Shown here in pieces: positions 2,757 through 63,745 of a DNA stretch of 64,000 nucleotides (positions are counted from its first letter, which is position 1; each line of letters opens with the position of its first letter). The stretch lies in contig NW_021832611.1 in the NCBI RefSeq assembly GCF_006345805.1, forward strand, positions 248,001-312,000, written 5' to 3'. Both the position numbers and the translations under genes were made by a program. The stretch comes from Octopus sinensis. Its lineage: Eukaryota. The notes beneath the pieces are model-generated. The model searched no databases and had not been told where the DNA came from. It worked only from the letters and a program-made list of their open reading frames with translations.

Positions 2757-5163
<2,407 letters not shown>

Positions 5164-5809
5164 GCTTAGTTGTTAGACTAACTTTTTCACTCGTTTTATC
5201 AATTAGTTTAATATTTCTTTTATTTTTCATACATAGCTTGAAGATTTGTATTTTTTACGTTTTATATAAGATGGGCGAAAAGAAGGAAAACGGAATTATC
5301 CCAATTTAAATAAAATGTGATTTTTAAAATCATTTTTTCAGTTGCAATCTTTTTAAATTGGTAGTATTTACTCCTGAAGATTGTTATCTGGATCTATTAA
5401 AACCGTTAAAAGAAAAGTGGATTTTTGTTTATACACTTATATTTAAAAAAATGCAATCGCCAAATATGCATGTCTTTATTGTCTGCACCTATACAGATAC
5501 TTAATGATTTAGTTGCTTAAAATAATAGTCTCTGAAAAAATGAATTTTCCAACATCCTTATTCATTGGCATTTTTGTTGACTAGAAATCTAGAATTATTT
5601 TTTTCATTGACACAATTTATTTGTCAGTACACCTAAATATCAACAATTTACTAACTTTTCTTTATTAAATATAGCTAAATTGTGTCTTTCCAAAAATATT
5701 TTTACTAAAAAATAAAGAATTAGTTTATAGAAAATTTTTTGAACATAAGTTTATTCTGAAATTAATTCTAATAGTCATTTTAGTTACCTAGTTTCAAAAG
5801 TATATTAAA

Positions 5810-11559: not shown

Positions 11560-13290
11560 ATGAATGATTCCAAATTGATTTCAACATTATTTGAAAATAT
11601 ATTAGGTTTTCTTGAAAAACCAGCAACACTTGATAACAATATTCATAATCTGGTTAAGCTAGCATATCGTTATGCACTGAGTAAAGGTACACATTTACTA
11701 AATAAAATAAGGAATTTTATTTATGTCACTCAATAATGAAAATATGCTTGAACCAATTTCCACTGTTTTGTTGCCATATCCAATATCTTTGAATTTATAC
11801 AATAATGGAAAAAATATAACACAATTATACAATATTTTGTACAACAAGGTTTCAGAAGATTATGAATTTCTTAAAAATACTTTAAAAAAGTATAAAATGA
11901 TTCCATTCTGTTAGTGTATTAGACCACGACCTTTTCATTAAAAAACTTTGGGAAATTTACGAGGAGGTGCGGCTTTATGGCCACAAACAAGTATGATAAA
12001 AAATTTAACGATAAAAAAGAATATCAAATTATCAATAAACCGCAACGATTTTATGATTTCAAACACACAAGAAAAAAACGAGTTAAAACAAGTTGAATTG
12101 AACACGATTGCAGTCGGTATGACTTCATTGAGTCAATCGGCTGCCGACTTACACAAATTTGTAATTGAACAACTTGGCCTCAATTCAAATGCTGTTAGAA
12201 AAATATCTAAAAAACTACTTTTCTAGATTCCCAAAGAGTCAATATCTTCAAAACTTGCAGATGCCTTTTTATATGCATTTAGACTTTACTCTCAGCAAAA
12301 GTATAGTAAATAAGTTGAGAATTTTAGTCAAATTATTTTTATTCCAATGATAGTGATTGTTGTTAATGATTTCGAGAGCAATATTATTGATCAAACTTTT
12401 GTAGAGATTGAAATCATATCAAAACTCGGAAAAGAATGTCTTGTAAGAAGACTAACTTTAGACTACATTGGCCAACATGCAGAACTGGGAGCGGAGGGGG
12501 AACTTTTACTGTATTATAGTTATTTTGATGAAATAGTGAGCAGAAGTTTGAAGTGGTTATTGTCTATTACCGTACAGCATATTCTCCTGAATTAATTTCA
12601 ACAAAATCTGTTTAAAATATTTTGTGAGATTTTCAGCATTGGAAAGGAAGACGTTTAGTCGAATTATCACGTTGTATTAAATGTCCCTCAATTAATTATC
12701 ATTTAACTGGTTGCAAGAAAGTACAACAAGTGCTGGCCTCCAAAACAGCACTGCGTAGATTTGTCGAGTCTAAATCAGACCTGGAACTTTTATTTAGTTC
12801 AATGGTGGGACAATATTCACTGGACTGCGATTCATTAGGAGACAAAATGACTCAATTTGCCATAGAAAATCCCGATAAATTTGTAATGAAGCCACAAAGA
12901 GAGGGTGGAGGTTTTAAATCATGTTTAAATTAAACAGGGAATAATTTATTTGGAGATTCTCTTGTCTCGCATTTAAAACAGATACAAAATTCTTCGGAAA
13001 GATCGCGGTATACTTTAATGGAAAAAATAATTCCAAAACCCACAAAAAATATAATATTAACAGATCGAAACAACCCAACTGTGGTTGATGTTGTATCTGA
13101 GATTAGTTTTTATGGATTTGTTATCAGGTATCAGGTTAATAGTCGATATAAATTTAGCGATGAAGACGAAATAGTTTTTAATGATGTCTGTGGCTCATTT
13201 GTTCGTATGAAATATGCTGATTGTAATGAGGGAGGGATTGTCATAAGAATGTCTTTTTTTTCTTCACTATATTTGACTGATACAGATTAA
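11560..13290 (+). CDS. GSS: Glutathione synthetase (eukaryotic type), divergent
   Basis: RNDFM, KQVELNTI, NIIDQ, KCPSI..HLTGCKKVQQ, FVMKPQREGGGNN and MEKI motifs across tiny introns. Confidence 0.9.
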
Positions 13291-21930: not shown

Positions 21931-22640
21931 TTCATTTTTATAATCGACAAGTTCAATTTTATAATTGGCATAATTTATTATTTCAAAGTCAAAATTGAAC
22001 TTAATTTTAACGTCAACATTGAATTTTCTGCTTTTGTTGATGACAACCTTAATTATGAAATATGCCGAGTACAAATTATATTATAGGATTAAAAAGAAAG
22101 TAAATATACGGTGTCTTGAAAGGATTATTGTTCAAAAATGTGTTGCATTTATAGCGAACATTCAGCTTGAGCTTCCGAGTGCAATTCAAATGCAGAACGT
22201 TGAATTTTTAAAATAACGCTCATTTTCCTTTTTTCTCTAATTTTATACGTTGTCGATTAGTTAAATTGCAAATTATAAAATTAAAGTTGCCAACTATAAA
22301 ATTGAACTTGCGGATTGTAAAATTGAATTTTCTAATAATACAATTCAGCCTGCAAATTCTAAAATTGGAGTTGTTTTCCTATATGTTAAAAACTAATGAT
22401 TTTTTGAATAAAAAAATTTTCATGTGTTCATAGGAAGAAAACTCTCTTGTCTTATTTAAAAGAAGAAAATAATTTCAAAAAATCAATAAGATGAAACTTT
22501 GACTAAAACATCGGTGCATATACTCAATTAAAAAAATATCACAATTTATAAATATGTATTTTAATAAAAAGTGATCGACTTTTTAATCGTATCATCAAAC
22601 ACCACTCTTGACTGTCCTTAATTTTTCGTAAACTAATGTA

Positions 22641-24130
22641 CAGTACCGCTCAAATGTTTCGGACCACCCTATTTCTCAATTTCCAAGTCAATCCTGAATT
22701 ATTTTATTACGGTTCTTAGAGAAACTTATTAGATAAGCTTAAATACATTATTCTATTCAAAATTTTCTTTAAATATTTTGTTGGCGCCAATTGAATATAA
22801 TTGATTTGACTCGATCATATGTTCCGGACCAGTTGCAATCATATGTTTCGAACCAGTTAAATCTCTTAAATTTAATAATTTTGGATTCAATTAAAAACAA
22901 AAGACTATAAATAACAAATGCCGCGTGTTTCACTGGTTGATCGGGTCGCTATCATCACTTTTTTTAAAGATGGAGCTTCACAAAGAGAAATTGCGAAAAA
23001 TTAAAAAATATCCAAAACTGCTGTTCAAAAGAACAATTTCCAGATATTCATCCGTTGGACTATATTCCGACAGACCCAAATCTGGTCGACCGAGATTGTT
23101 ATCCCCAAGATTGAACGCAAATTAGTGAGAATTCGAAGCAGACCCCACAAAAACGGCAAATCAAATTAATTTGATATGAAATTAAATTCTATTGTAAGCA
23201 CAAAACAATTAAAAGTGCCTACAAAGAAATAATTTGAATGGGCGAAAGCAATGCCCTAAAACCAAGTCTTTCCATATGCCATAAAAAGGCTAGAAAAATT
23301 GGTGCATTGAGAATTAACTTGGAGCCAAAATGATTGGGGTAAAATTATTTTTAGTGATGAATGCCAAAATAAATTTGCATTCAAACACAAAAATTATGTT
23401 AGAAGGCCACCAAACTCTAGATTTGACTCAAAATATTGTTTAAAAACACGAAAATTTTCTCCTAGCATTATGGTCTGGGGAGCTATTGCTGCAAAGGATG
23501 GAGAAACATTGTCTTATGCATTAAAAAGTTGATTCCGCAGAGTATCAGAGAATTATAAATGTTGGACTCGAAAATTTTTATGATGAGACCATGTATCTCC
23601 AGCAAGACGGCGCTCCTTCCCATCGGTCCATGTCGACAATGAATTTTTTTCAAAGGAAACAATAAAAATCTTAGAAACTGGGCCGAGCCAGTCACCCGAA
23701 CTGAATATTATTGAAAATATGTGGTCGGTACTAACAAAAACTTTATGATCTGGAACCAAAAGATCTTCCAGAGCTCTGGAATTTGACCAAAAAAAATTTG
23801 GTACGAGATTGAAATTCGTACATTGAAAATATACAATTCACTTCCAGAGCGATAAATGCTGTTATAACGAACAACGGAGGAAATATTAATTATTAACTTT
23901 TTATAAGTTTAATAAATTTCGGTTTTTTTAAAAGGTCCGAAAATATGATCGAGTATAAAATCGATAATTTTAAAATTGCGCCAAACATGAATATCTGTCC
24001 AAGTTTTTAAAATAGAATAAATGTGTTAAGCTTATCTAATAAGTTTCTCTAAAGAACCGTATAAAAATAATTTAGGATTGACTTGGAAATTGAGAAAAAT
24101 AGGGTGGTCCGAAACATTTGAGCGGTACTG
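22641..24130 (+). mobile_element. Tc1 element (IR/DR type), decayed transposase
   Basis: Long TIRs starting CAGTACCGCTCAAATGTTTCGGACCACCCTAT, TA on both sides; RPKSGRPR, FSDE, QQDGA, SPELNIIENMW. Confidence 0.9.
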
Positions 24131-24337
24131 TATAATAGTCAAAATCATTTCTCAGATAGAATTAACTCGTATTTTAATATTATCTAAATTAAATCATTAT
24201 GAATCCTTTTCTATACAATTATAAAATATTAACTCGAAATGTAAAATAATCATAATTTATTTAATATAAATAAAATAACGTGATTAATCTTGTGTGTTCT
24301 TGTATGCATTATTTTGAATGTAATATATTAGAACAAC

Positions 24338-28420: not shown

Positions 28421-28879
28421 CGTTGCTCCACCAAAGCTTGGGAAATGGTTCCCTAAAAATTCCCTTAACTTAATATATTTCTAGGTTGCTATCCATAAAA
28501 ATTTTCTCAAATGTTTATGTGAGTGTCACCTTTGTCAAAAAACTTTTTTCCAGGCGTGACTCCACAAAAAAGCAGTTTAAAATCACAGCCCGCCCTACAT
28601 GTCACACTTTCGTAAGTATTTTTGAACCATTTATATACAATTTCCGCTTGGCTCTGTAGATCTCCAAAAGGGTGCAATCCTGTGTGCCTGCGGGCTAAAT
28701 ACCAGAAAAGGACTGTATCGGCGCTTTATACTTGTTTCTATGATTTCTAAGTAATGGGCCTCTGACTGGAAGGCAAGTGGCTGCGATGGTGTCTACAACT
28801 TCTTTATTAAAAAATGAACTCCCTGAATGGCCCCCTATGCAAGAAGATTTTCAGAATAGTCCGAGGAGATTATATCCCC

Positions 28880-29682
28880 GGGAAATGGTTTTATACTGGA
28901 ACAACATATTTGATCCCAAAAAAAGACATCTGTAAAACCCCAAACGATCTTCGGCCCATCACGTGCATGCCTAACCTATAAAAGATAGTAACTTAATGCG
29001 TCAACTCGAAACTATCGGACTTTGTGGATTCATTTGGTCTAATTTCCGACAACCAACTTGGGACGAGAAGGCGATGCCAGGGTGCTAAAGAACAGGCCCT
29101 GATTAATCAATGTATCAATAAGGAATATCAGAACAATTTCTACTCGGTATGGATTGATGTCAAGAAGGCATTCGATTCTGTCGATCACGCCTTTTTATTC
29201 AATGTGTTAGAGTGTTCAGGGATCCCTTCGTGGATAACGGCCTTTGTGAAGAGTATTGTTAAAAGATGGAATGTAAACCTCCAAATTGACCAACGATTAA
29301 CCAAAGTGACCTTAACATGGAGACTTACTCGACGAATCATTTCTTCTTTGTGGACGATCTTAAACTACTTGCATATAAAGAGAATAAGATTGTAGAAATG
29401 ATGAAAACAGTCCGGAAGTTTTTTGAAACTGCCTGGTTGGAGATGAATCCTCAAAAATCTGTGTCCAATCTGGACAATCTTTCGTTCTGTAAACCTATGA
29501 AGGAATGGAAGGATATCGTTATTTGGGGGTGTTAGAAGACAAAGGGAGTGTTGTCCTTAAAGAAAAAGTTATGGGGTCAATCCTACAGAAAGTTAAGGAA
29601 AGAATAATCAATCTCTACAAAACAAAACTAAACTCTGCAAACTTTTTTCATGCCATAAACAAATATGCACTATCGTTATATA
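28880..29682 (+). mobile_element. R4/Dong-like non-LTR element, RT half
   Basis: RPITCMPNLYK, NQLGTRR, WIDVKKAFDSVDH, FVDDLK, YRYLG; ends HAINKYALSLY at the Tc1 insertion. Confidence 0.85.
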
Positions 29683-31119
29683 CAATATGGTTCACAAATA
29701 TTACACCCCTTGACTTTTTGACAAATAAAATCAATTTCCGATACTAATAATTAATTACTTAAACTATTTTTATGCAATTTAGTTCTTATTAAAGTTGATT
29801 TAATAATTTTTATTTTTTTAAAACCAAAAATCAATTTATTTTATATCTGTGAGCAAAAACATGAAAAATTGCCGCCTCATAAATAGTACACCATTTAAAA
29901 AGTCAGTATTTGGTGTGCCCTCCTTTATTTTTGATGACTACTTTTAGTCTCGAGGTTATTGATTCCACCAATTTGATACATATTTCCTTTGGAATTTTTT
30001 TCCATTCTTCAATAATTAAATTTTCTAGATTTTTTTTATTTGTGACGTCAAATGTTAAAATTTTTCTTTTTAAATAGCACCACAGGTGTTCAATTGGATT
30101 TAAATTTGGCGACATGCTCGGCCAGTTCATTTGCAAGATTTTTTGTCAGTCAAAAAACTTTTAGTCTTCTTTGCAGTATGCTTCGAATCGTTATCTTGTT
30201 GGAAAATCGGATTTCCTGAATGTTTGTTGATAAAGGGAACCATTTTTTCCTCAAGTATATTAATGTACATGTCTGCATTCATGATCCCATTTATGATATA
30301 AAGTTCACCAGGTCCTTGCGAGCTCATAGATCCCCATATCTTTATATTTCCGCCGCCATTGTTATTGTAGCCACTATGCATTTTGGATTTATTGCATCGC
30401 CATTTTTGCGCCACACATGCTGAATTCCATCTGATCCGAAGAAATTGATTTTGGTCTCATCTGATCACAGAATTCTATTCCAAAAATTCATATTTTTGTT
30501 TACATATTTTTTGCAAATTGTAAACGGTTTCTTTTGTGCCTTTTTGACAATAATGGTTTCCTTCGAGGTACTCGGCCATATAAATTGCATTCATGTAGTG
30601 TCTTTTTTATTGTAGATTTTGATATTTGAATATCAGAATAAGATTCCAATTGTTTTGCAATTGCAGATGAAAAGATTCTTATATTTAGAGAGAGAACATG
30701 TTATTAGAAACTAACTAATCCAAACGAAGTGTCCCCGCTGCAACTATTTTTCTCTTGTGCTGTGGCTGAATTTTCGATATATTTATTAAAAAACTAAAAA
30801 ATGTAAAATACTTTAATCTATGTTAAGAACAAATTTGAGACATATTTGCAATATTGTCCCATTGTAAATTTATAAGAAAAAGTATGTCCAGTTTTTATTT
30901 TTGTTCACTGTAGCTTGTTCATGGTTATAGGTTTTTGTTTGTTTTCCTCATTTATATTAATTTTCAAACAAATCCGTATTAAACAATTTGAATTATATTT
31001 TTTCTACGATACACAACTAGTATCCTCTATTTATCTAAACGAAATGCATTTTCTACAAACTTCAACAAAAAATTCAAAAATTGTCTACAATAAATCATTT
31101 TTTTATTTAAAAAAACAAG

Positions 31120-31530
31120 TTATGTTTTTTCACCTCGAATTCTTCTCGATAAATGCATATCGTTTGGCATTATAGTTACTCTTTTTCCGTGAATTGCGCA
31201 CAAATTACTGTCTTCGAAAATTCCAACAAGGTAACTCTCTGCCGCTTCTTGGAGAGCGACAATTGCTGACGATTGAAAACGTAAATCAGTTTTGATAAAC
31301 TGAGCGGTTTCTCTCACGAGTCTCTGGAATGGAAGTTTTCGTAGTAACAAATCAGTGCTCTTTTGATATCGTCTAATTTCTCGCATTGCAACAACTCCAG
31401 GTCGAAATCGATGAGGTTTCTTTACCCCTCCAAATTGTGAAACAGACTTGCGAGCAGATTTTGCAGACAACTGTTTCCTTGGTACTTTTGCACCAGTAGA
31501 TTTTCGAGCTGTTTGTTTTGTTCTAGCCAT
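31120..31530 (-). CDS. Divergent histone H3, intact and intronless
   Basis: Full 136-aa H3 ORF; 30 differences from human H3.1 by manual count. Confidence 0.95.
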
Positions 31531-31771
31531 ATTTTTTTATTTCAGACAACAATGACAATGCCAGTATAGTAAAAAAAGACATCATTCCGAAATTTTTTCG
31601 AGTAATGCAAACAAGTATTATTCCGAAAATTTTTTGGTTAAATTACTCGTCATTATTAAAATCAAAAAATTAAATATTTTTTAAATAATATTTTATCAGC
31701 ACCATCAAATAATTGTAACTATTGCTTAAATTGATGAATTTTGCAAGATTACAGACTAAATTACTAGTTAA

Positions 31772-31956
31772 TCAAGTAAACAAAAAGCAGAGAACGATCA
31801 GCTTGCAAGTTGTCGCGCATGATTGTAACCGCGATCCTCCGTTTTAGCCAAGAAGATTTGCGTGCATAAATGTTTTTCCGAGCGATAAGGAGGCCGACGT
31901 CTTTTAAGAACTTGGATGTTTGAGAAGGCAGCGGAGATCTCGAATGGCAAAGGAAC
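31772..31956 (-). mobile_element. CRE-like 3' fragment with 13-bp target duplication
   Basis: FLKDVGLLIARK..SSWLKRRIAVTIMRDN; flanked by AATTACTAGTTAA at 31759-31771 and 31957-31969. Confidence 0.75.
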
Positions 31957-32029
31957 AATTACTAGTTAAAATTCGATTGTTGCAATAGTTATTTAAAGAA
32001 CAAATGAATAAAAAATTATTTTTAAAATG

Positions 32030-32375
32030 TTATTTTGTATTCGTGTACTTAGTAACTGCCTTTGCACCTTCTGTAATAGCATGTTTTGCCAATTCATCCG
32101 GAAGAATCAGACGAACTGCAGTCTGTATTTCACGTGAGGTAATGGTAGCCTTCGAATTCTAATAGACTAGATTTGAAGCCTCGGTTTTTATTTTGTCTAA
32201 ACATCGAATGTAAAACTGTCCATAGCCATCATAGCCTTCTTTGACATCCCAAGTTGATTATGTACTGTCTTTAAAATTTTCATAAGATATATTGAAAAAG
32301 TTTTTCTTTGTTTTCTTTGTAGCAACAGAAACATTTTTGGTTTTAATGGGAGCTCTTTTTTGTCCTTTTGCAAAA
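32030..32375 (-). pseudogene. Divergent histone H2B pseudogene
   Basis: [55 protein letters not shown]; frameshifts and an in-frame stop. Confidence 0.9.
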
Positions 32376-32391
32376 AAGTATCATTCCGAAA

Positions 32392-33282
32392 TTTTTGAAA
32401 CTAATAATTTGTAATGGTAGAAATTTAAAATATTTCTAATAAAATAGAACAATAAAATAAAACGAAAAAGTTATAAATTAGTTAATGTCATGAGGAGATG
32501 CACAGCAAATAGAAAAGCTAAATAGAACAAAAATTAAAAGGGGGAATTTTAGTTAACTCAAATTAACCTCAGAAGCGACAAAAATTATAAAATTTTTAAA
32601 ATATTCGCATCATATTTAAATTTAAAAATAGATGTACATTTTCTCCATAAAACGCGAGATTTTTACTGATTCTCTGACTAAACATAATTATAAAACGATT
32701 CGAAAAAGTAAACTATTAGAAAAAAATAAAATTTTCGAATGATATAACTCTAATTTACTCTATAAATATACTTTTTGTTTTTTCTAGAACATTTCTTACC
32801 GATTAAAAAAAGCAATCGTAGTATTTCACCGTCGTTTGTTAGCTTGTTATGAAATTGCTAATTTTTATCTGGTTAATTTGTAAGGAATATCAATGTATTT
32901 TATTAAAAAAATTATTTATAATTTATCCACCAAATCCGTAAATTGTCCTACCTTGACGTTTCAAGGCATTAACAACGTCCATTGCAATAACAGTTTTTCT
33001 TTTGGCATGTTCAGTGTAAGAAATACAATCACGAACAGTTTGCTCAATAAAAATTTTAAGGACAGAACGTGTCGCGTCGTAAATTTTTCCAGAAATTCTT
33101 CGAACACCTCCTCTTCGACATAGTCTTCTTATTGCTGGCTTAATAATTCCTTGTATATTGTCAATTAATATCTTTTGAAATCGTTTTTGAAACTAATAAT
33201 TTGTAATGGTAGAAAATTAAAATATTTCTTAATAAAATAGAACAATAAAGTAAAACGAAAAAGTTATAAATTAGTTAATGTC
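32392..33282. repeat. About 100-bp direct repeat (32392-32489 and 33184-33282) upstream of H2B and H4
   Basis: TTTTTGAAACTAATAATTTGTAATGGTAGAAA...GTTATAAATTAGTTAATGTC occurs twice. Confidence 0.9.
32923..33186 (-). pseudogene. Divergent histone H4 lacking start codon and N-terminal 15 residues
   Basis: Open frame [27 protein letters not shown]...[13 protein letters not shown], with an in-frame TAG just upstream. Confidence 0.9.
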
Positions 33283-33451
33283 CTCACATATGGCTATGAG
33301 GGCTGGTACTGTCGGAGGAGAGTGACTACTTTGTCAAACAGTTGGAAAAAACAAGACGTTTCGCATTGAAACTGGCTTATAAAGTACAACTTGACGGAGG
33401 GCTAGAAAGCTCGCAAGAATCTGCTGTGCCCACGATCCGGATAGTCTTGAG

Positions 33452-34632
33452 TAGTGATGCACCGATAACCATTTTTGGATTTTGCCGATTACCGATTATC
33501 GGCCAATTTCACCGATACCGATTAATCGGCCATTATATTATACATAAAAATATATTTATATGTAATTTATTTTATTAAAAATGTAATTAAATATTTTGTT
33601 TAACATGTCGAGCGTTGTATGGAAATTTTTGATGTCTCAGACGATAATTCGTTTTTTGCGTATGTAAATTATGCGATATTTTAATATCAAGAGGAGGACG
33701 AACGCGAAAGACATTTACAACATCTAATATGATAAATCATCTTAGGGTTTATCATAGTGAACAATTAGCTGAAGAACAATTGTGTTACAGAAAAAAAACG
33801 ACCTTTGCCTCAATTGAAGCAGTTAACACTTACTCAAGTTATAGAAAAGAAAAATATGTGGAATATTGACGATCATAAATCAAAAATAATTCATAAATTA
33901 ATGGGAGAAATGATTGCAGTTAATTTATTACCCTATTCATTTGTTGGTGATATTGGTTTCATTCGATTACTAAATCATATTATTCCAAATTATTGTATTC
34001 CCTCCAGAAAATATTTTTCGCATTCACTTCAATTATCAATAAATGAATCAATTTTTTCTCAAGAAGATGTCAAAAATATTATTAGTACTAGTCGGGATAT
34101 TGTAAGCCATTTTAATCATTCTGCACTTGCAATTAGCAAATTAACTAACTTGCAAAACTCAATTAAATCTGCCTGTCCATAAATTGAAACAAGATATTAA
34201 TATCAGATGGAATTCTACTTATTACATGTCATCGAGAGTGATCGAACAACGAAAAGCTCTCGTAACATGTGCAATTGATAATATTTCCCGCTTAAGTAAA
34301 ATGGCGTTGAAATATTTAACAGCTCCTGCTTTGTCTGTAGAAAGCGAAAGAGTTTTCAGCACTGGAGGAAATATATATCAACCGAAAAGAAATAGACTTT
34401 TGCCAGAGAATGGAGAAATGATGATGTACCTAAAATATAATTAAGAACATTAGACTTTAATTATTGATTCTTCTAAAAAAAATTTTGTTTTTTTTAACGT
34501 TTTGTTGTATACAATTGTATTCGGAAAATAATACATTACCGATTAATCGGCAGATTTTGCCGATTACCGATAATCGGCAAAGTGGCCGATATGCCGATTA
34601 CCGATTATCGGCGATTAATCGGTGCACCTCTA
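33452..34632 (+). mobile_element. Internally deleted hAT element (ZBED/Ac-like)
   Basis: TIR TAGTGATGCACCGAT / ATCGGTGCACCTCTA; 8-bp TSD GTCTTGAG; CCGAT subterminal repeats; BED finger, RWNSTY, SERVFS. Confidence 0.9.
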
Positions 34633-35171
34633 GTCTTGAGAAAAATTGTAAACATCGATAAATGGGGATACGCATTGAAAGAGACACTTCGGTGCCTCGA
34701 TTAATCTCTTCGATCTTTCCTTGTTTTCTTTCGGTTTCTGATCAATAAACATTCCATTCTATTCCTATTTAAAAAGTATTAAAAAGTAACTTAGCTGAAT
34801 TTAAACAGAAATTAAATTTTATTTATTTTTTTTTAAATATTTTAAATTTATTGACTTAATTAGGATAAATTACATATCACGTGTTATGTACAGCTTGCTG
34901 TTATGTTATTTTTTTGTTCTGCTTGTGGTTGTTAATTCTGGTTTTATTTTTTCTTGCAATTAATACTTTATTTTTATAATATTTTTGTTTTTTTATTTGT
35001 TTGAAGATTATTTAAATTGACTACTGGTAAAATATTTTCTATAGAGTTTATTTTGCAAGTAAATTTGTATTCATTTTATCAATTAATTAATCTTCATTCA
35101 TAAGGATTTCTTGAATTAAATTCATTTTTATCTAGTATTTTATTGTTTATTTTGATTTTTTTAGTATTTTA

Positions 35172-36944
35172 TGTCACAGTCCGAATAAAATACACGCCGA
35201 ATAATTACATTCTTTAATTTTACTGAAATTAAAAATTTACACAACAAAATGTTTATTATTATTAAAAATATGATTTTAATGTAAAATCATTAACCTTTTT
35301 TACTAATTTATATAAACAAAACCAACCACACTCAATTTACGCAGTTAACTTATACGTTTGAATATGTTATTCCATTTTAGGTTATCCTAATAAAATTTTC
35401 ATATAAAATTATCGTTAATTTAAATAAAAAATTATTTTATTATGGATTTATGAAAATTAATCAATTTTAGCTAATCGAGAAATATGAATTCCGTGTAACC
35501 GCTCACCGTCCTCCTTTTCGATAACATAGAGATCATTTCTTCGCTCGACAACATATACTTATTAACATCAAGTCCATCGTACAGCGGATACTGCCGAACA
35601 TTGGCATCGTTGTCCTGTCTAAAAATTAATTTGACGCTTGAGACCTTAAAACCACAGTCGTCCGACATTGATATTTCTTCGTCGTATCTCCATTTTCTTT
35701 TTTCAATCATTTTTTCGCCAGCAATAATTAAGTTTCTAATGCACTTTCTCGTGCTCTGATAATCCAGTTGAATCATAGGCTAAAAGTTGCTCCATTCCCC
35801 CTTCATCAATCCTTCCAGGATTTTCAACACCCATGAATATTATAAAAAGGATTTTTTGTCGAAGAATGAATGCTGTTATTGTAATCATACACGATGTCCT
35901 TTATGCATTCGCGATATCGTCCAAAACAATTTTGAGAAGAACTTGCCGACGATAGCCAGCGTTTTATGCTTTGATTAAATCTACAAATCGATTTTAAATC
36001 ATTAACCTTTCGACTTGCCTTGTACCCAAGGAGCACGAGGCCTCCCACGTACATGTTTTATACCATATTTCGTACATAGAGCATCCATTGCGAATTGCAA
36101 AATTCCCTTCCATTATCAGTGTGTAGAATAAGCGGAGGCCCGACATAATAAAAAATTCTTTGGAATAAATCTGCGATTTCTTCAGAAGATTTGGTCACCG
36201 ACAGTTCAAGCATTACATATTGGAAAAGAATCCACAATTACCAAAATCTATTTATTAACAAAATTCATACCCAGCTAAAGCCATCATTCAACGCCGAATA
36301 TCTTCTGAGGTCAATTAAATCCGCAATGTATCTGTCCCTACATCTCCTTGCAATGATTGGCGTAATCGGAGGCTTCGTAGACAATAATTTTTTCGACTAA
36401 GAATATTTACTAAAAGGAGTTATTACCTGACAGAAAGCACAATTCGAAATCACCTTAGAGATTTCTTCTCTATTCAATCCATAATAGAGATTTCTTAATT
36501 TCGAAAAAAGCCGGTCTCTCCCAAAGTGGTTATAGTTATGTTCCGCCAAATTTTATTTATTAAGTTGGACCTCAACGCAACTTAAGCTTTAATTCGATTT
36601 CATCTTCACAGAAAAAACGCAATTTAAGCCCATTTTTCGAAATATGTTTTTCCATTTTCAAAATGGAAATTCTTTCCCAATTTTGTGAGCCTGTATCGCT
36701 CATGCCGCTCGATTGACGATGTATCAAAGTTGGAGTCTTTCATTTCTTGATTTTGTCCAGTGTTTCCTTAAATAATCTCACTACACGCATGTTTCACGCT
36801 TTTTTAAATAAAAAATAATAATGTGATTCTACTAAAAATAAATAATCAATTATTGATTTTTTCATACTAATTTTTAGATTTCTTTTTTCAGCCATTTGTG
36901 ACAAGTGTAGATTATTCGGCGTGTATTTTATTCGGACTGTCACA
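35172..36944 (-). mobile_element. Ginger-like integrase DNA transposon, decayed
   Basis: 34-bp TIR TGTCACAGTCCGAATAAAATACACGCCGAATAAT (1 mismatch); TTTA flanks; HFGRDR..CAFCQ, ADLID, LHTDNGREF, RFNQSIK. Confidence 0.85.
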
Positions 36945-37144
36945 TTTATTGTTATTTTGATTTTTTAGTATTTTATTGTTTATTTTGATTTTTTTAGTAT
37001 TTTATTGTTTATTTTGATTTTTTTAGTATTTTATTGTGTACTTTTTATTGTGGTAGTTCATTCCTTAAAAGTAAAAATTCAATTTATAAGAAAACAGCCC
37101 CAAATATTTTTTATTGCGAGGCAACAGCCATCTGAATTGCTTTA

Positions 37145-38353
37145 TGTCAGCGTCCATTTGCCGGACCGCATTTCTCATTTTACAATTTTTCGCTAAAAAA
37201 ACAACATATTTTTTTTCCAAGTCCGAAGTTACTCAATTTATTCACTTATTTTCAATATTACAAAAAATATTTATATAATATTTCCATCTTCTCTATGTGT
37301 TGTAAAATTCTCACCCAGTCCATAAATAACGAAGTACTTAGTTACATTTAATTGGTCATATAGAGGGCATCTTTTATTTTGCTCGTTTGCATCTTGGTCA
37401 TGACGGAGCAAAACACAATTGCCAATTTTGATTTCGTCTTCATCAAATTTCCACCGTCTTCGTTTTGACATATAGTCTCCACAAATCTAGAGATTCTTAT
37501 AAGCTCCTTCCCGAGCTTTAGTAAGATTTTCTTCATTACAATCATTAATTTCAGGATTTTGCGGATAGTGTGCACCCATAAAAATATAAAATGGGATTTG
37601 TTTCGTACTTTGATGTACAGTGATATTGTATTGAAATACAATTTTTTTAATTATATTAACATATCTCCCAAAGTCGCCATTTGAGGCCGAGGTTGAAGAT
37701 ATCCAACGTTTAATACTTTGATTAAATCTATTTACATTTTTTGTAGAATAAAATATACCTTTCAACCTGGCCTTGTATCCATGGTAAAAAATCGCATCCT
37801 AATTTTGCTTGATCAGAAGTAAAAAATCGCATCCTAAATCCACTTTTCAAGTAAAATTGTTTTTCATCATCAAATTCAAACGTTTCAGACAATTTTTTAA
37901 GTCTATACTTTTGTCTTTTGGAATTTCAGGACAATAATAATCATTCATTTTAAAATTTTTAATTATTTTTTCTTCCAGCACTTTCTGTCACTTTCGCAGA
38001 ATTTTTCATAGTTTTGCATTCAACAAAAATTTCAATTTGTTAATAGGAGTTAATTTATGGAATTAATTAAGAAAATTTAACCGGTCCGAAGTGGACCCCG
38101 CCAACATAATTGACGTTGCGTTGCCTCTCACGATAGCAACGGAGATCAACTGGAGAAGCCACCGGGTCTCACGTGTGTCGTGGCTTTTTAATGTGGCTAA
38201 GCGTCCAAGCTTCTTTAGGAAGCGAAGCGATTTCCCACTTATTCCTCCAGTTGTCTCGACCACAATCGGACAGAATCATTAAGTCATTATTATTTGAAAT
38301 GATATGTTTTTTTGTTTTAAAGTGATGTACGGTCCGGCAAATGGACGGTGACA
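37145..38353 (-). mobile_element. Second Ginger-like element (integrase C-terminal remnant)
   Basis: TIR TGTCAGCGTCCATTTGCCGGACCG / CGGTCCGGCAAATGGACGGTGACA; 5-bp TSD CTTTA; RFNQSIKRW..YNITVHQST. Confidence 0.85.
38063..38275 (-). mobile_element. CRE-like 3' fragment nested in the Ginger-like element
   Basis: VETTGGISGKSLRFLKKLGR..WLLQLISVAIVRGNA. Confidence 0.75.
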
Positions 38354-38358
38354 CTTTA

Positions 38359-39212
38359 TTTTGACGCCGGTATTGTTACGAGCAGATTCCATGGCCTAAA
38401 CAAGAAAGATTCGGTTTTCACCTCAAGGGAGAGGAATTCACATAGTGTCCCCTCGATGATAGTGAGGTTACGGACTTGGAGTTTTTCACAGTAGAAGATG
38501 CTCGAGCCAGTCCCAGGCGTAGAGCAGCTACCCCATTTAAGATCCACTGACCGGTAGCCTGGGAGCTGGTAAGAGTCATCTTCCTTGAGCTTCGACTCGT
38601 TGACGACAATAATGTCTGGATGGCCGCTGTTCACCATCTCAACGAAGTCGTGATGCCGTCTCTTGATAGATCGGGCATTCACAGCGATTATATTGATAGT
38701 GGCTATGTTGCTGAATTGCTCCCTTCTAGCAGGAGCTCTTGCAGCATATTCATATCCACTCCAAGTTTGGTCAGGGCTCCTACACAACGGCGGAAGAATT
38801 CCAGTAGGGCATCTCTGTTGTGTAGGTCCTGATCCGAGTGGGGACCTCTTTGTGGCAAAGCTTTGTCACGGTGGGTTTCTGCCTTCTTATGGGGGACAGC
38901 CGAGCGGACCACTTCTGAGTTATAACACTCATTAGTGTTTGACTTCGAGCTTGAGAATGTGCTGGGGGCCAGCGACGTCTGAATATACACATCGACTTTT
39001 GACGGACTTTAATGAGGTCCTTTTGTCCAGACTCATTCAGTGGGTTTGGCTTTTACCCAGCGGACTGGGCTTCTAGCCTGTTGGTTCTGGAGGCTGCTGT
39101 TGCGGCTTTGGCAGACGGACATCCGCCGTAGCACGCCAAGTGCCCAGTGTTCTTGCATTTAATGCAAGTTTTTGCAGATGGGACGCTTCTACATTGCTGT
39201 TATTCTTAGACA
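38359..39212 (-). mobile_element. LINE 5' part: ORF1 remnant plus AP-endonuclease
   Basis: IAVNARSIK..PDIIVVNESKL..QLPGY; GC-rich upstream ORF1-like segment; interrupted by the element at 37145-38353. Confidence 0.7.
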
Positions 39213-39457
39213 TTTACAAAGAAATAGCTTCGATGTTAACTAGATTTATTAAAAAAAAAAGAATTGTTAGTTTATTATTTTCATCATTTTAAATTATTAT
39301 TCTTCTATTTTATTTACTTTCGATGTAGTTTAATAGGTCATTAATGTCATATTTTTTTCATAAAGTCATATTTTTTCCATAAAGTTATATTTTTTTTCAT
39401 TTAGTCATATAATGATTAGTTTATTACAAAAAAGAATTCAGTCAAGTGTTGAAAGCT

Positions 39458-40050
39458 TCATGGACGGGAAGCCGACGCGATCGAGAAAGAATTAGAGCGT
39501 ACTATTGCAAAAGATATCCGCTCGAAAAACCATCTTGATTCGCGAGCGTCGCCTGTAATAGCAGACATACCGCCCGAGGAACCGGAAGTCTCAACCGGGA
39601 ATGGAAAGAATTGGAACTTTTCCGTAAGTGAGGAGTACTTCCGCATCTTTTAGCATTCCGCGGTTGTGACAATAGATCCAGGGGCGGATGCGGACATCAG
39701 CAGGTTCTGCGGCGAAGAGAAAGAGTCCACACACGTTGCATCCCAGGTAAGAGGTTCCCCTTGTTGAAGGGAAAACAGTAATCCAGTCAGGCCTTTTTCC
39801 GTCCCCCCGATCGATCCCAGAAGGTTCAAGCAGGGAGGGGATTCCGGCGACTTCAGGGCTCTCTTGATAAGGTCGTTAAGAGCCGCGTGCCGCGGGATTC
39901 GGCAGCACTGCGTCTACACGATAAAGCGTGCAGTCCAAAGCGACAGATTTTTGCGCCACAGCGGCAGACATGTGGCTTGCATAGGCGAAGACCAAGACGT
40001 AAACAAATTCCAGTCCAGAAGGTTCCCAATACTCGGCAGTGGAGTGGCAT
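39458..40050 (-). mobile_element. CRE-like 3' region (zinc knuckle + REL)
   Basis: LRLGL..PHVCRCGA..HALSC..DGKRPD..WDATCVDS..FPVETSG..FERISFAIVR. Confidence 0.85.
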
Positions 40051-40199
40051 TTAGCCGGCTCCGCTGTGAGGGCGACATGCAGTCTCAAAGCAGGCCAAGC
40101 GTGGTGTGGTGAGGGAGAGAATTCTAGTTATTAAGTACTAGTTTTCAGGATTGAGAGATAATTCCCGTTTAAAACAGTCATCTTTTGAATAAGGAATAT

Positions 40200-40800
40200 A
40201 AATTCCCTGGGATCTCTGGAGCGATGGGTGCACGGTCAAGTTTCTTTAGACGAGCAAGCGTCTTTGCCCCGAAAACACAGATCGCACAAATCATCGTAGT
40301 TTGACAGTTTCGTGGATTCGTCTTCTCAGCCGACGAACCGAGTCAACATGCAGTGGAATTCAAAGCTCGCTTGGCGAAAGAGTCGGAAACAAGCAGCTTC
40401 CCGGATTCAAAAGCGTACAGCCGTCTAGACGTTTTGCATCTTCAAGATCAAGGCCCGTCAGTTCTAGAACTGAAGGAAAACCAGGTCTTTCCAGGGCTTT
40501 GTGAATTACATTGTTGATTTCAGTGTGCTCATTCTACAAGACAGAGAATGGATCCCAAGGGCGTCAACTTTAGCCCCACAACGGCAGGGGTGAGGTCTCC
40601 AAACAGGGAGTCCAAGACGATTGCAGATACACAAACGGAGTGAATCCCTATCGAAAACAGTATCCAAAAGCGGAGAAGAGAGAACATTAAGCCAGGAGCC
40701 TGAGTATGGCTGACAGGCGGAACGGAAACAGGCCCTGTGTTGTTCAAGGAGCGGTTCCAATTTTGTCCCAATCTCGCTGAGAAATGACATCGGAATGAAG
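40200..40800 (-). mobile_element. CRE-like fragment
   Basis: SGSWLNV..RLGLPV..PCRCGAKVDALGIHSLSC..DAKRLDG. Confidence 0.8.
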
Positions 40801-41248
40801 TTCAAATTAACTTTGTTTCCAAAGTGCAAGGGCTGAATCAATATCAGAATTTAACGATGATTCAGTTGGACAAAAACACGTTAGAATGTGTAACGTGGAT
40901 GGCTCTCCACATTAAATTTGAGACGACCATACTCGGTGGCTTATTAAGCTTAGGCAATATTATTTTTCTACTCATACGCTCTACAATTAGTAAAAGAGGA
41001 CATATTTGCAGTTCAATTAATCTTGAATAAGTTGTATTTTAATGAATAGTTGCTCCGCGTAGGAGACGATGGAAAAAACAATTCTCTTGCTTGTTAAGAT
41101 CAAGCGAGGTCCACATGAAACCAGAATTGATCAAAATAATAGTGTCAACATTGACAAAGTAGAATTGCTAGTTAATATCACTCAGATATAACTATTTTTT
41201 CCAAATTAATCAATTAAATTCTAATTCATCCACGTTAATTCTTTGATT

Positions 41249-41382
41249 GAGAGGCCGAGCAAATAGACAGGCAGTTTCCGCGCAATATCGCGAGCGAAAT
41301 GTGCTGAAAAAACCAGCTAGACTCACGTCTCTCGTGACTCTTCCTCGAGATCATCAAGCCGATCTCCGAAAGGAACTCCAGC
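41249..41382 (-). mobile_element. CRE-like 3' fragment with 8-bp direct repeat
   Basis: FLSEIGLMISRKSHERRESSWFFQHISLAILRGNC; CTTTGATT at 41241-41248 and 41383-41390. Confidence 0.7.
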
Positions 41383-41452
41383 CTTTGATTCTAACAGATA
41401 TAAGATTTTTTCAACAAAAAAACAAGGGGTGTAATATTTTTGGACCATACTG

Positions 41453-42772
41453 TAATTATTATATTGGCTTGATCGACATTGAGCCTTCGAAATTCGAAAA
41501 TATTGACCTGCAAATCAGGGGCTTACTCGTCTCCTTCAAAATACATTTAAGCCGACAAACAAGGAGCGGCTGTATTTATGCAGGAAAAATCTTAGAAGAG
41601 GATTAACGTCGATTGTTTTTAAAAGTGAATTGATGCTATTCCAGTTCTTGGGTGGCCTTGAGAGAATATCTTCGGTTTGCCTGAGGAGGTCGGGGATTCT
41701 GCGATCAATTAAAACAAATAAATTGCACTTATCAAGGATCGCAGGATTTCTAGCCTCCAAATATGGTATTGAGAGAAAAGAAAGCATATGTGTGGAGTCT
41801 ATCAAAACAGCCCAGAAGTATTGGTTAATCAAGGGGATCGAATGTAAAGCTATGCATTCCATATTATTCAGATGTCTAAATGACCAGAATATTGATATAG
41901 AAACGTCAAGTGGATAGCTTTCGAGAGGAAATGTTTCTCCCAGAAGTGAGGCACTATATTGCCTACTGCAGGACAGAAATCTGTTTTTTTCAACCAAGGG
42001 AGCATTGTGCAATCATTGTATAAGAAGCAAAAAAACGGTTGGGCATTTGCCAACACAGTGTGGGAAAATGCTCAACAGTGATTACGTCAGAAGACATAAT
42101 GAGGTCGTGAGATGTATTCATCTCCATCTATGCAGGAAGTACTCAATCAGCAAAATCAAAAAATTGAAGGGGTATTCTGTCCAATCAATCATATCTACGC
42201 AAAATGTTAAAATACGTGTCGATTCTAAAATAATTACCGACACGAATATTCAGTGCAACAAGCCTGATATATTTGTGTACTACAAAACTAAAAATGAAAT
42301 TACTCTTATCGAAGTTGGAATCACTTCTCAAGACCACCTGAAGCAGGTCGAGGTCGAGAAATGCCATAAATACGATTTATTGGCAGGGGAGTTGTCCATT
42401 CTTAACGACGCTCAAGTGAAAATAATTCCACTGATTTTGACTTGGGACGGGGTCGTTTCCAAGTTTTTTAAAAAATACATTGAAAAGTTGGCTATCGAAG
42501 ACGCAACTCGGTCTTATATACAGTCAGTTGTATTGAAGAAAACATTGGAAAGTATTATTGTTGAGCACAGGCATGGGATCAGAATCACTGATGACGAGAT
42601 AAATTCAGCCAGTAGCCTTTTAATTGAAGCAAGTCATTCGTATAAAGATAATATGGAGAACGAGGGAAAAAGAGTCGTAACTAACCTGGAGACAGAGGAT
42701 CAAGGAGTGATGTTGGTTACTTCCTCCTCTAAAAGGAGGAGATTAACCTCCAGCGGACAACGGTCGGATTAA
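41453..42772 (+). mobile_element. R4/Dong-like non-LTR element, 3' half (CCHC + REL)
   Basis: NYYIGLIDIEP continues the 29682 fragment; CNHC..HLPTQC..RHNEVVR..KPDI..IEVG..KCHKY. Confidence 0.85.
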
Positions 42773-43071
42773 TATCAATTAAATAATATTAACTTAATTA
42801 ATTTGTGTAATTTCCAAGTAACTAAAAAAATTGTTTTTAGTCAAAACAAGAGTTTTTAGTTTGAAAAGTCTCACTTTTGGTCATAAAATAAATTTTAAAT
42901 TTCAAAAAAACCAATATACAAAATTTGTTCACTCAGTTAAATAAGCAGTGTTACTGCTGTGTGCGAAGCAAGTACGCTTCATTGATCGGCAACAACATAT
43001 TCTTAATTATTTAATCTATTTTCAACACCAATCCACAAATATAGATAAAAAGAGTTTTTCAAAACAACAAA

Positions 43072-51104: not shown

Positions 51105-51871
51105 GACTAGTCGATAATCTAATGATAGAAAAATTTGCCAGCTTAGACTTAAAATCACTTAAAATCCAAAGATTGGGAATCATCCCTATTTAGACAATAC
51201 CAAACACTTTCAGCTTCTGAAGATAATGACAGTAACTTGGAATTAATACGCACAAACGTTTAACAAATGCTAGACAAAATGAGCCACTTTGCTTGCACTC
51301 AAGATCCTGCATTACTCGATCCCGTCAACAGACTGATCTATTTGAACGATAAAGCAATTGCTGAATTGAAACTAAATAAGAAGTAATCCTTATTGACAGA
51401 TTTTTATTAATTTTAGGTTTCACTTTTTCGTTATACGTAAATTTAATGACTTCATGCCGGACAATTCTGTCGGTCTCAAAGGGAATCTGCGTAGAGAGGT
51501 TTTACTGTACTCGTCTACAGGTTCATAACTAATTGATTATCTGGAATATAAAACCAACCATGCTTCCTATTTGCATAATATGTCGCGAGCCGAGAGTGAA
51601 ACTATGGCAGGGTAAAACCACTATAACAGCAGTCATAAGTCAGGATAAAATAATTCGCGTTAAAAAATTACGTCAATTTAATAGACTAGAAAGGATATTC
51701 GTTAAAAATGATTAAAAGCATAACTTACTGAAATACATCTTTGAATAGCAAGATGTAGCTATTCCGAAAGTTATCTTAATAATAAAATGGTATGGTGTGT
51801 GTCTGTCTGTCTGTGTGTCTGTCTGTGTGTCTGTCTGTCTGTCTGTGTGTGCACACCAACTTCAAATTGGC

Positions 51872-52860
51872 AATACGATGTCCTCGACTTACATGATGAG
51901 GTCCTTAAAACCTTCCCCCCAAAAAAATTAAAAAAAATTTTCTGCATTTTGGTTAAAATGAACAACTACGATGTCCTCGACTTACATGATGAGGTCCTTA
52001 AAACCTTCCCCCCCAAAAAAATTAAAAAAAAATTTTCTGCATTTTGGTTAAAATGAACAACTACAATGTCCTCGACTTACATGATGAAGTCCTTAAAACC
52101 TCCCCCCCAAAAAAATTAAAAAAAATTTTCTGCATTTTGGTTAAAATGAACAACTACAATGTCCTCGACTTACATGATGAAGTCCTTAAAACCTTCCCCC
52201 CCAAAAAAATTAAAAAAAAATTTTCTGCATTTTGGTTAAAATGAACAACTACAATGTCCTCGACTTACATGATGAAGTCCTTAAAACCTTCCCCCCCAAA
52301 AAAATTAAAAAAAAATTTTCTGCATTTTGGTTAAAATGAACAACTACAATGTCCTCGACTTACATGATGAAGTCCTTAAAACCTTCCCCCCCAAAAAAAT
52401 TAAAAAAAAATTTTCTGCATTTTGGTTAAAATGAACAACTACAATGTCCTCGACTTACATGATGAAGTCCTTAAAACCTTCCCCCCCAAAAAAATTAAAA
52501 AAAAAATTTTCTGCATTTTGGTTAAAATGAACAACTACAATGTCCTCGACTTACATGATGAAGTCCTTAAAACCTTCCCCCCCAAAAAAATTAAAAAAAA
52601 TTTTCTGCATTTTGGTTAAAATGAACAACTACAATGTCCTCGACTTACATGATGAAGTCCTTAAAACCTTCCCCCCAAAAAAAATTAAAAAAAAATTTTC
52701 TGCATTTTGGTTAAAATGAACAACTACAATGTCCTCGACTTACATGATGAAGTCCTTAAAACCTTTCCCCCAAAAAATCAAAAAATTATTTTCTGCATTT
52801 TGATTAAAATGAACAACGCGAATGTCCTCGAAATTCATGATGAGGTCCATTAAAACCTTC
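51872..52860 (+). repeat. About 94-bp tandem minisatellite, 10-11 copies
   Basis: Unit AACTACAATGTCCTCGACTTACATGATGAAGTCCTTAAAACCTTCCCCCC...TTTTCTGCATTTTGGTTAAAATGAAC. Confidence 0.95.
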
Positions 52861-53070
52861 AAGGCAAAAATCTCACGTATTAAGAATATCCTTGATGAAA
52901 ACGACAGCGAGAATATTAACAATGATGAACTCCCAATTATTCGCGATAAAGAAATTCAATTCATCCTATGTTTTTCTCTTTAAATTAAATGCATATATCA
53001 TTATCGACCATGAATCAAAATTAAAGCTATTATCATATTTGACTTTGACAGAATGTGCAATCACAGATTG

Positions 53071-62349: not shown

Positions 62350-63745
62350 ATGGTTTCTCTGAGAAGAGCTTTTAATTTGTCTTTTTCTAAACACAATGAA
62401 ATAATGAAATATCAAAAGTAACACCAATAAAATATACCTCAAGTTTGAGTTATAGAACCGGCATAATGTTGCTTAACATGGGAGGATGTGAGACGTTAGA
62501 AGGAATTAGCGACTATCTGACCAATATATTTACTGATCCAGATATTATTCAACTTCCATTCAGCAGGCAGTCTTTAATATTTATACCGTCTAATAGCGTA
62601 ACTGGAAGACTAATTGCGATCAGAAGAGCTCCCAAAGTGGCTGAATACTATAAGGCAATTGGCGGAGGCAGTCCTATAAGAAAAATAAGCGAAGAACAAG
62701 CAAAAATGATCACAAAATACTTAAATAAAAATTATCCGTCACTCGGTATAAGTTTTTATTAATTTACTTAGGGCCATTTAAATCCTATGTTGGGTTTAGG
62801 TACTCACCCCCGATGATTGATGAAGCGTACGAGGCTATGGAAAAGGATGGGATTAAGCGAGCAGTGGCCCTTTCCCTATACCCACAGTACAGCTGTACCA
62901 CTACGGGGAGTTCCTTGAATTATTTGGCTCAAATCGCTTTAAAGAAAAGATCATCAATAATGTGGAGTATAATTGATAGATGGCCTACTCAAGATTTTTT
63001 TATAAATGTACTTTAAACATTTTGTTAATTTACAGTTTTTGGTCGACAAATTGAGAGATTTGATAATGGATTTTGAAAGTTATGATGATAAACCACCCGT
63101 GATTTTATTCACTGCTCATTCTATACCTTTTAAAGTGAATTATTTTTTATCAATGATAAGGTTTTTGATAAAGGTGATCACTATGTAAGGGAAGTCTTTG
63201 CAACGAGTTATCAAGTCATGAAAAAACTAAATTTAGACTTGCCGTATTGTGTTTCCTGGCAATCACGGGTAGTTTTTGATTATGTTTTAACTTTTAGGTT
63301 GGTCCTATACAGTGGATGGTACCCAGTGTTGATAAAACGCTTACTGGTTTGGCTAAGAATGGCTATCAGAATATCATTTTAGCCCCAATTGTGTTTACTG
63401 CCGATTGCAGCGAGACTTTGTATGAATTGGACATTCTTTATAGAAATTTAGCCACAAAAGTTGTTTTGGATAATTTTAATAATTTTAAGATCGGGATAAA
63501 AAGATTAGTCAGGCTTCCAGTGCCTAATCTTGATCCTGACTTTCTTTATGTTTTTTCACTTATATTAGTTTTAGGGATTAGCCAGGCTGACTGGAGAACA
63601 CATTATCCAACGAGGAGAAGTATCGAATCAATGGAAAATGAGATGTCCTGAGTGTAGAAGCAGTCGTTGTATAAAAGCACGAACTTTTTTCTGTAATAAT
63701 TATATCAAGCATCAAGAGTATTTAACTCAAAATATTCTAAAATAA
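62350..63745 (+). CDS. FECH: Ferrochelatase, mitochondrial
   Basis: MLLNMGG, GGGSPI, YPQYSCTTTGSS, IDRWPT, FTAHS, WQSRVGP, ETLYELD; C-terminal CPECRSSRC Fe-S ligands. Confidence 0.95.

What the first reader, a model, noticed from the sequence alone, without database searches (positions are those of the whole stretch)
29683..41452. Histone cassette inside an 11.8-kb Tc1-bounded segment that splits a LINE
Seen: removing 29683-41452 and one TA rejoins an R4-like RT frame exactly (tcg tta tat aat tat tat att ggc = SLYNYYIG). The removed block starts and ends with matching Tc1 TIRs. It holds the transposase 3' part, then H3/H2B/H4 and many nested TEs; the transposase 5' part is missing. So the histone genes reached this locus with or after the Tc1 insertion. 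Inference: either a Pack-Tc1 that captured and moved a histone cluster, or a histone cassette mobilised by another vector. Transposon-borne multi-histone cassettes are not a familiar feature of Tc1 elements.
Basis: partly seen in the sequence, partly recalled or inferred. Interest (0 to 1): 0.75.

Follow-up and report, generated by a model that had tools for sequence, protein, structure and literature searches.

The report
One-off histone chunk in broken transposon
A single copy of an ordinary jumping gene, in what is likely a tiny parasite sequenced along with an octopus, lost a third of its length and holds instead a 10.7-kb piece of that parasite's own histone gene repeat, likely pasted in once during DNA repair; no second copy was found, so it looks like an accident rather than a mobile histone cassette.

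Summary
The structure is real. Tc1 ends with TA on both sides split an R4-like LINE, and intact LINE copies read SLYNYYIG across the site. The element belongs to a 1.6-kb Tc1 family and has lost 534 bp of its 5' part, replaced by 10.7 kb.

The cargo is a DNA-level copy of about two thirds of the organism's tandem histone unit, including the end of a second Tc1 family that sits in that unit. H3 is intact, H2B and H4 are broken, H2A is absent. hAT and Ginger-like elements came later.

No mobile family was found. Only this pair among 40 exact Tc1-end matches encloses histones, and 0 of 267 fetched loci share any of 11 junctions.

The contig is not octopus. Introns are 24-31 nt, chromosomes carry canonical histones, and its innexin falls outside molluscs: likely a co-sequenced dicyemid. 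Best reading: a single-copy Pack-TIR/orphon made by gap-filling repair, a known class, unusual only in size and cargo. Short-read contigs bridged one inner junction, not the outer ones.

The scan already noted the parasite, its histone repeat and a histone-headed LINE on other DNA.

The parts
28762..29682 (+). R4-like LINE, left part (RT region, decayed); ends in TA 29681-29682
Evidence: RVT_1 hits; paralogs continue into 41453 onward.
29683..30686 (-). Tc1 family a: 3' terminal repeat and transposase 3' part (positions 1-987 of the 1586-bp copy), frameshifted; terminal repeat differs at 3 of 30 nt from the right one
   Evidence: DDE_3 hit below cut-off; family copies 80-96% alike
30687..30770 (.). 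81-bp inner piece of a common ~330-bp repeat, lacking both its ends (filler at the junction)
30771..30912 (.). Right end of Tc1 family b with its TA, joined to the H3 3' spacer exactly as in the host histone repeat
31120..31530 (-). Histone H3, intact, protein identical to array H3; keeps the two upstream TTCGGAATRAT motifs
32028..32370 (-). H2B pseudogene: start deleted, 5-nt and 1-nt deletions, one stop
32372..32499 (.). H2B upstream spacer of one array subtype; about 99 bp of it duplicated at 33184-33282
   Evidence: (D3, D6)
32920..33187 (-). H4 pseudogene lacking codons 1-14, with 3 private amino-acid changes
33283..35171 (.). Non-histone stretch (with 36945-37144) that lies beside a truncated H4 on other contigs too
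   Evidence: C12637, C10781, C9073, C11710, C8311
33452..34632 (+). hAT element, 8-bp duplication GTCTTGAG; absent from sister blocks
   Evidence: Dimer_Tnp_hAT
35172..36944 (-). TGT...ACA-ended element with integrase-like remnant (Ginger-like, label recalled); young, 0.2% from a copy on C8713; absent from sister blocks
37145..38353 (-). Second TGT...ACA-ended, integrase-like element, 5-bp duplication CTTTA; absent from sister blocks
38356..39187 (-). Inner fragment (ORF1 end, endonuclease start) of a LINE also found inside the histone arrays
39413..41381 (-). Piece of another LINE (CRE/R2-like, label recalled, no Pfam hit) with a 387-bp insert at 40561-40947; cut by the right junction
   Evidence: contiguous copies on C10954 and C10756
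41388..41452 (-). Last 65 bp of the Tc1a 5' end including the terminal repeat; TA 41453-41454
41453..42800 (+). R4-like LINE, right part

Best explanation
One Tc1 copy inserted into a LINE and lost 534 bp of its 5' part, and the gap was likely filled once, by DNA break repair, with a piece of the organism's own partly decayed tandem histone repeat, giving a single-copy Pack-TIR or histone orphon. Shown: the nesting, the deletion, the colinearity of the cargo with the array unit, the later hAT and Ginger-like insertions (4.6 kb), and that no second copy was found. Inferred: a break in or near the element (perhaps from attempted excision, since a third of it is gone and one break lies 65 bp from the end), template switching or end-joining with filler DNA, and that the host is a dicyemid. 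The block is predicted to be immobile now; H3 alone may still work.
For: Cargo order (Tc1b end, spacer, H3, H2B, spacer, H4) and non-transcribed spacers match the array unit, so it is a DNA copy and not a retrocopy. A truncated H4 with the same neighbouring non-histone DNA lies on 5 other contigs without the three nested DNA elements, so part of the decay predates capture. Of 40 exact Tc1a end matches on 29 contigs, only this pair encloses histones; on C8744 and C11576 the histones lie outside the element. 0 of 267 loci share any of 11 junctions. Both cargo ends cut unrelated repeats with no target duplication, and an 81-bp filler sits at the left. Five other Tc1a copies also hold 1-3.6-kb foreign inserts, one replacing about 425 bp. 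Private substitutions: LINE 27/770, Tc1a 20/1055, neutral cargo 57/2720, so the LINE is oldest.
Against: No microhomology over about 1 nt at the outer junctions (by eye). No donor on the same 428-kb contig, whereas published single-copy cases favour nearby donors (PMC8277862). Tc1a and cargo ages cannot be told apart (p = 0.8), so capture before a last jump is not excluded. In run X1 one contig bridges the filler|Tc1b junction, but none of the 8 listed of 66 records bridges LINE|Tc1a or Tc1a|filler, and the window's own letters differ from X1 at several places. The end pattern was exact and misses worn ends. The H3 search scored 150 of 178 candidates.
Confidence: 0.68

Rival explanations
1. 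Capture happened elsewhere, and the loaded element (about 7.2 kb before later insertions) then jumped as a unit into the LINE: a true Pack-Tc1 that moved once or a few times.
For: Both ends and the TA duplication are present. Tc1a and cargo have equal private divergence, about 2%. No donor on the contig. The family had full-length 1.6-kb copies.
Against: No second copy among 40 end matches or 267 loci. The left terminal repeat differs at 3 of 30 nt, including position 3, although one other copy also starts CAA. Efficiency of Tc1-type transposition falls with size (recalled).
Confidence: 0.16
2. Another mobile element, or an extrachromosomal circle from the histone array, inserted into the Tc1a, and later deletions removed its ends together with 534 bp of Tc1a.
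For: Sister copies of the decayed H4 block are spread over several contigs. Deletions are common inside the cargo. Circular DNA contigs are reported for dicyemids (PMC6543705, passages).
Against: The sister blocks share no common termini. The cargo ends are two unrelated repeats. No target duplication.
Confidence: 0.09
3. Misassembly: long reads joined the LINE locus to a histone-array region.
For: The assembly mixes two organisms and has many frameshifting indels. Outer junctions were not shown bridged in short-read contigs.
Against: It needs two misjoins that return to the same TA of the same LINE and keep both Tc1 ends. The joins are not in shared repeats. One inner junction, absent from all 267 other loci, is bridged by a 128-nt contig with 1 mismatch.
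Confidence: 0.07

Closest known systems
Single-copy Pack-TIRs of animals (Tan et al. 2021, PMC8277862; abstract, passages and Methods section 14 read)
   Same: Both ends of one terminal-repeat element around host DNA; single copy; TcMariner is a main carrier (115 of 370); gap filling is the favoured origin.
   Different: 34% of the element is lost against a median of 4.6%. No clear microhomology, donor not nearby and not unique. The only histone mention in that paper's main text is an intronic piece of H2BC15.
Histone orphons (dispersed copies of tandem histone repeats; concept recalled, seen here only in reference titles in PMC8190105 and PMC12153100)
   Same: A solitary, partly dead copy of a tandem histone unit with spacers, later hit by transposons.
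   Different: Here it lies inside the ends of a Tc1 element and holds three genes of the unit.
Pack-MULE and Pack-CACTA of plants (PMC6379663, passages)
   Same: Terminal repeats around host sequence.
   Different: Those are families seen to move. Their tandem-insertion model captures DNA that lay between two neighbouring elements, which does not fit here because the LINE rejoins exactly.

Membership tests
Tc1/mariner element | Short terminal inverted repeats with TA duplication | tested here: met
Tc1/mariner element | DDE transposase | tested here: met
   DDE_3 hit, E 8.6e-6, 26.1 bits, below the 28.6 cut-off, on a broken frame; 1586-bp family copies
Single-copy Pack-TIR | Both ends from the same element family flanking the cargo | tested here: met
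Single-copy Pack-TIR | Cargo derived from host DNA with a parent at 90% identity or more | tested here: met
   H3 plus spacer 1.6-2.3% from C10654 and C8311
Single-copy Pack-TIR | Working filters of the published screen: cargo under 5 kb, unique parent, parent free of transposons | tested here: not met
   cargo 10,695 bp; parent is a multicopy, transposon-rich array. These are search filters, so it works like one but would not have been listed
Single-copy Pack-TIR | Microhomology at a breakpoint (about two thirds of cases) | tested here: inconclusive
   0-1 nt by eye; exact donor unknown
Single-copy Pack-TIR | Cargo-free element at the orthologous site | not testable with these tools
   no related genome held; C8698 is syntenic only at ferrochelatase
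Multicopy (mobile) Pack-TIR | Two or more copies with the same cargo at different target sites | tested here: not met
Histone orphon | Solitary copy derived from a tandem histone repeat, away from the array | tested here: met
   only divergent-type H3/H4 hit on the 428-kb contig, among single-copy genes
Dicyemid genome | Introns with median near 27 nt | tested here: met
   one gene only: mtHSP70 introns 30, 25, 24, 31, 26, 27, 65, 26, 25, 29 nt give a stop-free 628-aa frame; literature median 27 bp
Dicyemid genome | Sequence match to named Dicyema genes or 18S | tested here: inconclusive
   no named Dicyema protein; a second, 1667-nt 18S lies beside the divergent histones but no named reference was on hand

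The most novel reading that the evidence does not exclude
The Tc1a moved with its histone cargo as one unit and has further copies in the parasite population, with H3 kept under selection: a Tc1 element that spreads a working core histone gene in a dicyemid.
Probability: 0.1. Interest if true: 0.62.

Novelty: new member of a known kind. Interest (0 to 1): 0.3.

Why it matters
It is a well-dated example of a Tc1 element holding a whole host gene and far more DNA than published animal Pack-TIR screens allowed. It also shows how histone repeats get scattered in a transposon-rich parasite genome. And it warns that genes on these unplaced contigs, labelled octopus in public databases, are likely parasite genes. 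As a single mostly dead copy it opens no new mechanism. If the loaded element proved mobile and its H3 expressed, it would be a transposon-borne core histone.

Tried and rejected
Tc1b as the vector: rejected, since its end keeps the TA joint to the H3 spacer and so was not cut. Retrocopy: rejected, spacers and a transposon end are included. C8698 as the homologous haplotype: syntenic only at ferrochelatase; it gave a LINE paralog, not an empty site. C8318's two Tc1a ends 90 kb apart are both 5' ends, not one giant element. Dating Tc1a against cargo did not separate them. Naming the parasite: the ferrochelatase exon found nothing at E 1e-15, the innexin found no named Dicyema protein, and the 18S primer found in the PMC12953835 supplement is universal. 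No RNA holder listed. Reads: no cover at 30218-30499 at 97% likeness; a hole proves nothing; right junctions not examined record by record. A first intron search was faulty and a first splice was out of frame; both were dropped. The H2B codon count was out of frame and was replaced. Paper searches: histone genes + captured + DNA transposon + histone cluster gave 4 listings, none on this by title or abstract; orphon + histone + transposon gave 18 papers, 14 listed; a search for histone-targeting LINEs gave 0. Subscription journals are largely not covered, and supplements of PMC8277862 were not read.

Full report
OBSERVATION. The block 29683-41452 (11,770 bp) starts and ends with inverted repeats, 27 of 30 nt alike, each next to TA. 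Removing it and one TA restores the LINE frame. Of 13 LINE paralogs examined, 9 run through the site; 8 overlap by the 2-nt TA, the ninth has a small deletion, and the open ones read ALSLYNYYIGL.

THE VEHICLE. The ends belong to a multicopy Tc1 family (here Tc1a). Full copies span about 1.6 kb. The window keeps positions 1-987 and 1522-1586 of a 1586-bp copy, so 534 bp were replaced by 10,695 bp. Foreign DNA inside Tc1a is not rare here: five other copies among those fetched hold 1-3.6-kb inserts, one of them replacing about 425 bp.

THE CARGO. The same divergent histones form tandem units of about 5.1 kb on C2235, C10250, C10743, C13428 and others: H3, H2B, spacer, H4, H2A, and a second Tc1 family (Tc1b) fixed between H2A and H3. 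The window's 30771-33187 follows this order, from the right end of Tc1b with its uncut TA through H3, H2B and H4. H3 is intact and keeps its upstream motifs. H2B has lost its start and carries a stop and two frameshifts; H4 lacks codons 1-14; H2A is absent. A truncated H4 with the same neighbouring non-histone DNA occurs on C12637, C10781, C9073, C11710 and C8311, without the hAT and the two Ginger-like elements. So a partly decayed unit was copied, and 4.6 kb of nested elements came later. One of them is 0.2% from another copy.

IS IT MOBILE? An exact search for the Tc1a end gave 40 matches on 29 contigs (control 1). Three of those contigs also have divergent-type H3 or H4 hits, and only in the window do the histones lie between the ends. 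None of 11 window junctions was found in 267 other loci, 1.42 Mb (loci fetched later were not included). Genome searches with the two outer junctions found only the separate parts (each scored 40 candidates, of 224 and 88). Both cargo ends cut through unrelated repeats with no target duplication, and an 81-bp inner piece of a common repeat sits as filler at the left. Limits: worn ends escape an exact pattern, and the H3 search scored 150 of 178 candidates.

TIMING. Private substitutions per site were 27/770 for the LINE, 20/1055 for Tc1a and 57/2720 for neutral cargo. The LINE is oldest. Tc1a and cargo cannot be separated (p = 0.8), so capture in place and capture just before a last jump both remain possible. 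H3 has 3 private synonymous and 0 replacement changes, against 2 and 6 in H2B plus H4 (Fisher p = 0.06). This is a weak hint that H3 stayed under selection or came from a working donor not in my sample.

READS. Contigs of four public runs were laid on the region and those of X1 again on 29560-30960. One 128-nt contig bridges the filler|Tc1b junction with 1 mismatch. None of the 8 listed of 66 records bridges the two left outer junctions, and X1 differs from the window at several letters, so it may hold another parasite genotype. X1 may also be the source sample. The outer junctions are thus unconfirmed by reads. Misassembly is still unlikely because it needs two misjoins that restore one TA site.

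WHOSE DNA. Source databases label near-identical proteins Octopus sinensis. But the chromosome-size contigs carry canonical H3 and H4 and a 2.6-kb 18S, while the divergent histones and all Tc1a ends lie on small contigs. A second 18S of 1667 nt sits between pieces of the divergent histone array on C1618. The window is gene-dense; 9 of 10 introns of its mitochondrial HSP70 are 24-31 nt. Ferrochelatase is present in a compact and in a long-intron form. An innexin on the window's contig falls outside the clade that joins the chromosomal innexins with mollusc proteins (100/99; long branches). Dicyemid introns have a median of 27 bp (PMC6543705, passages), and Dicyema japonicum was collected from this octopus species and has a genome that is 49% repeats (PMC6736024, passages). 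The dicyemid identity is inferred; no named Dicyema sequence was matched.

COMPARISON. Tan et al. (PMC8277862; abstract, passages, Methods section) found 370 Pack-TIRs in 100 animal genomes, 115 of them TcMariner, nearly all single-copy and ascribed to gap filling. This locus works like one. It differs in size, in the large loss of element sequence with a break near one end (closer to their excision-triggered scenario), and in holding a whole histone gene. It fails the test for a multicopy Pack-TIR. It is also a histone orphon in the classical sense (recalled). My searches found no paper on a Tc1 element carrying several histone genes (listings only for most), but coverage is partial. Other papers opened: PMC6379663, PMC8190105, PMC12153100, PMC12953835 (passages; one supplement searched) and bioRxiv 10.1101/2021.11.30.470311 (passages, on transposon fusions with chromatin domains).

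SIDE FINDING. A young 4.55-kb LINE family begins with the H3 5' leader and codons 1-29 in frame with its first protein. It has 43 exact 3'-end matches; 15 of the 30 fetched lie within 40 nt upstream of a histone-type start codon, four of these an unverified H2B-like start and some likely duplicates. It is not in the window, and the scan had already reported it.

VERDICT. Real structure, single copy, mostly dead cargo, known class: new member of a known kind, interest 0.3.

Noticed in passing
G000:C8697:189497-194030 (L208) and other contigs; 43 matches: Young 4.55-kb LINE family (CCHC ORF1, endonuclease-RT ORF2) whose first frame starts with histone H3 codons 1-29; 15 of 30 fetched 3' ends lie within 40 nt upstream of a histone-type start codon. 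Already noted by the scan.
   Followed up: partly
L064:7029-8502 and other array units: A complete Tc1-family element (about 1.47 kb) is a fixed part of the tandem histone repeat unit, between the H2A and H3 3' ends.
   Followed up: partly
G000:C1618:486-8327 (L224): A 1667-nt 18S rRNA gene lies directly between scrambled pieces of the divergent histone array.
   Followed up: partly
window 2969-5170, 11942-13287, 62400-63648: Mitochondrial HSP70, glutathione synthase and ferrochelatase are compact genes; introns measured in HSP70 are mostly 24-31 nt. These and other genes on such contigs are likely parasite genes filed under the octopus.
   Followed up: partly
G000:C9082:324799-325890 (L306) and about 30 other small contigs: Large family of divergent innexins on parasite-type contigs.
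   Followed up: partly
window 22632-24139: Another Tc1-like element of about 1.5 kb with long inverted repeats.
   Followed up: no
window 51814-52869: Tandem repeat of about 95 bp, also on C2235, C8694, C10781 and C9073, several near histone pieces.
   Followed up: no
G000:C8698:174482-175902: Second compact ferrochelatase, 95% identical to the window's but in non-syntenic surroundings.
   Followed up: partly
window 31572-31642, 32372-32405: A motif TTCGGAATRAT recurs about 60-100 nt upstream of H3 and H2B starts (a variant before H4): a candidate histone promoter element.
   Followed up: partly
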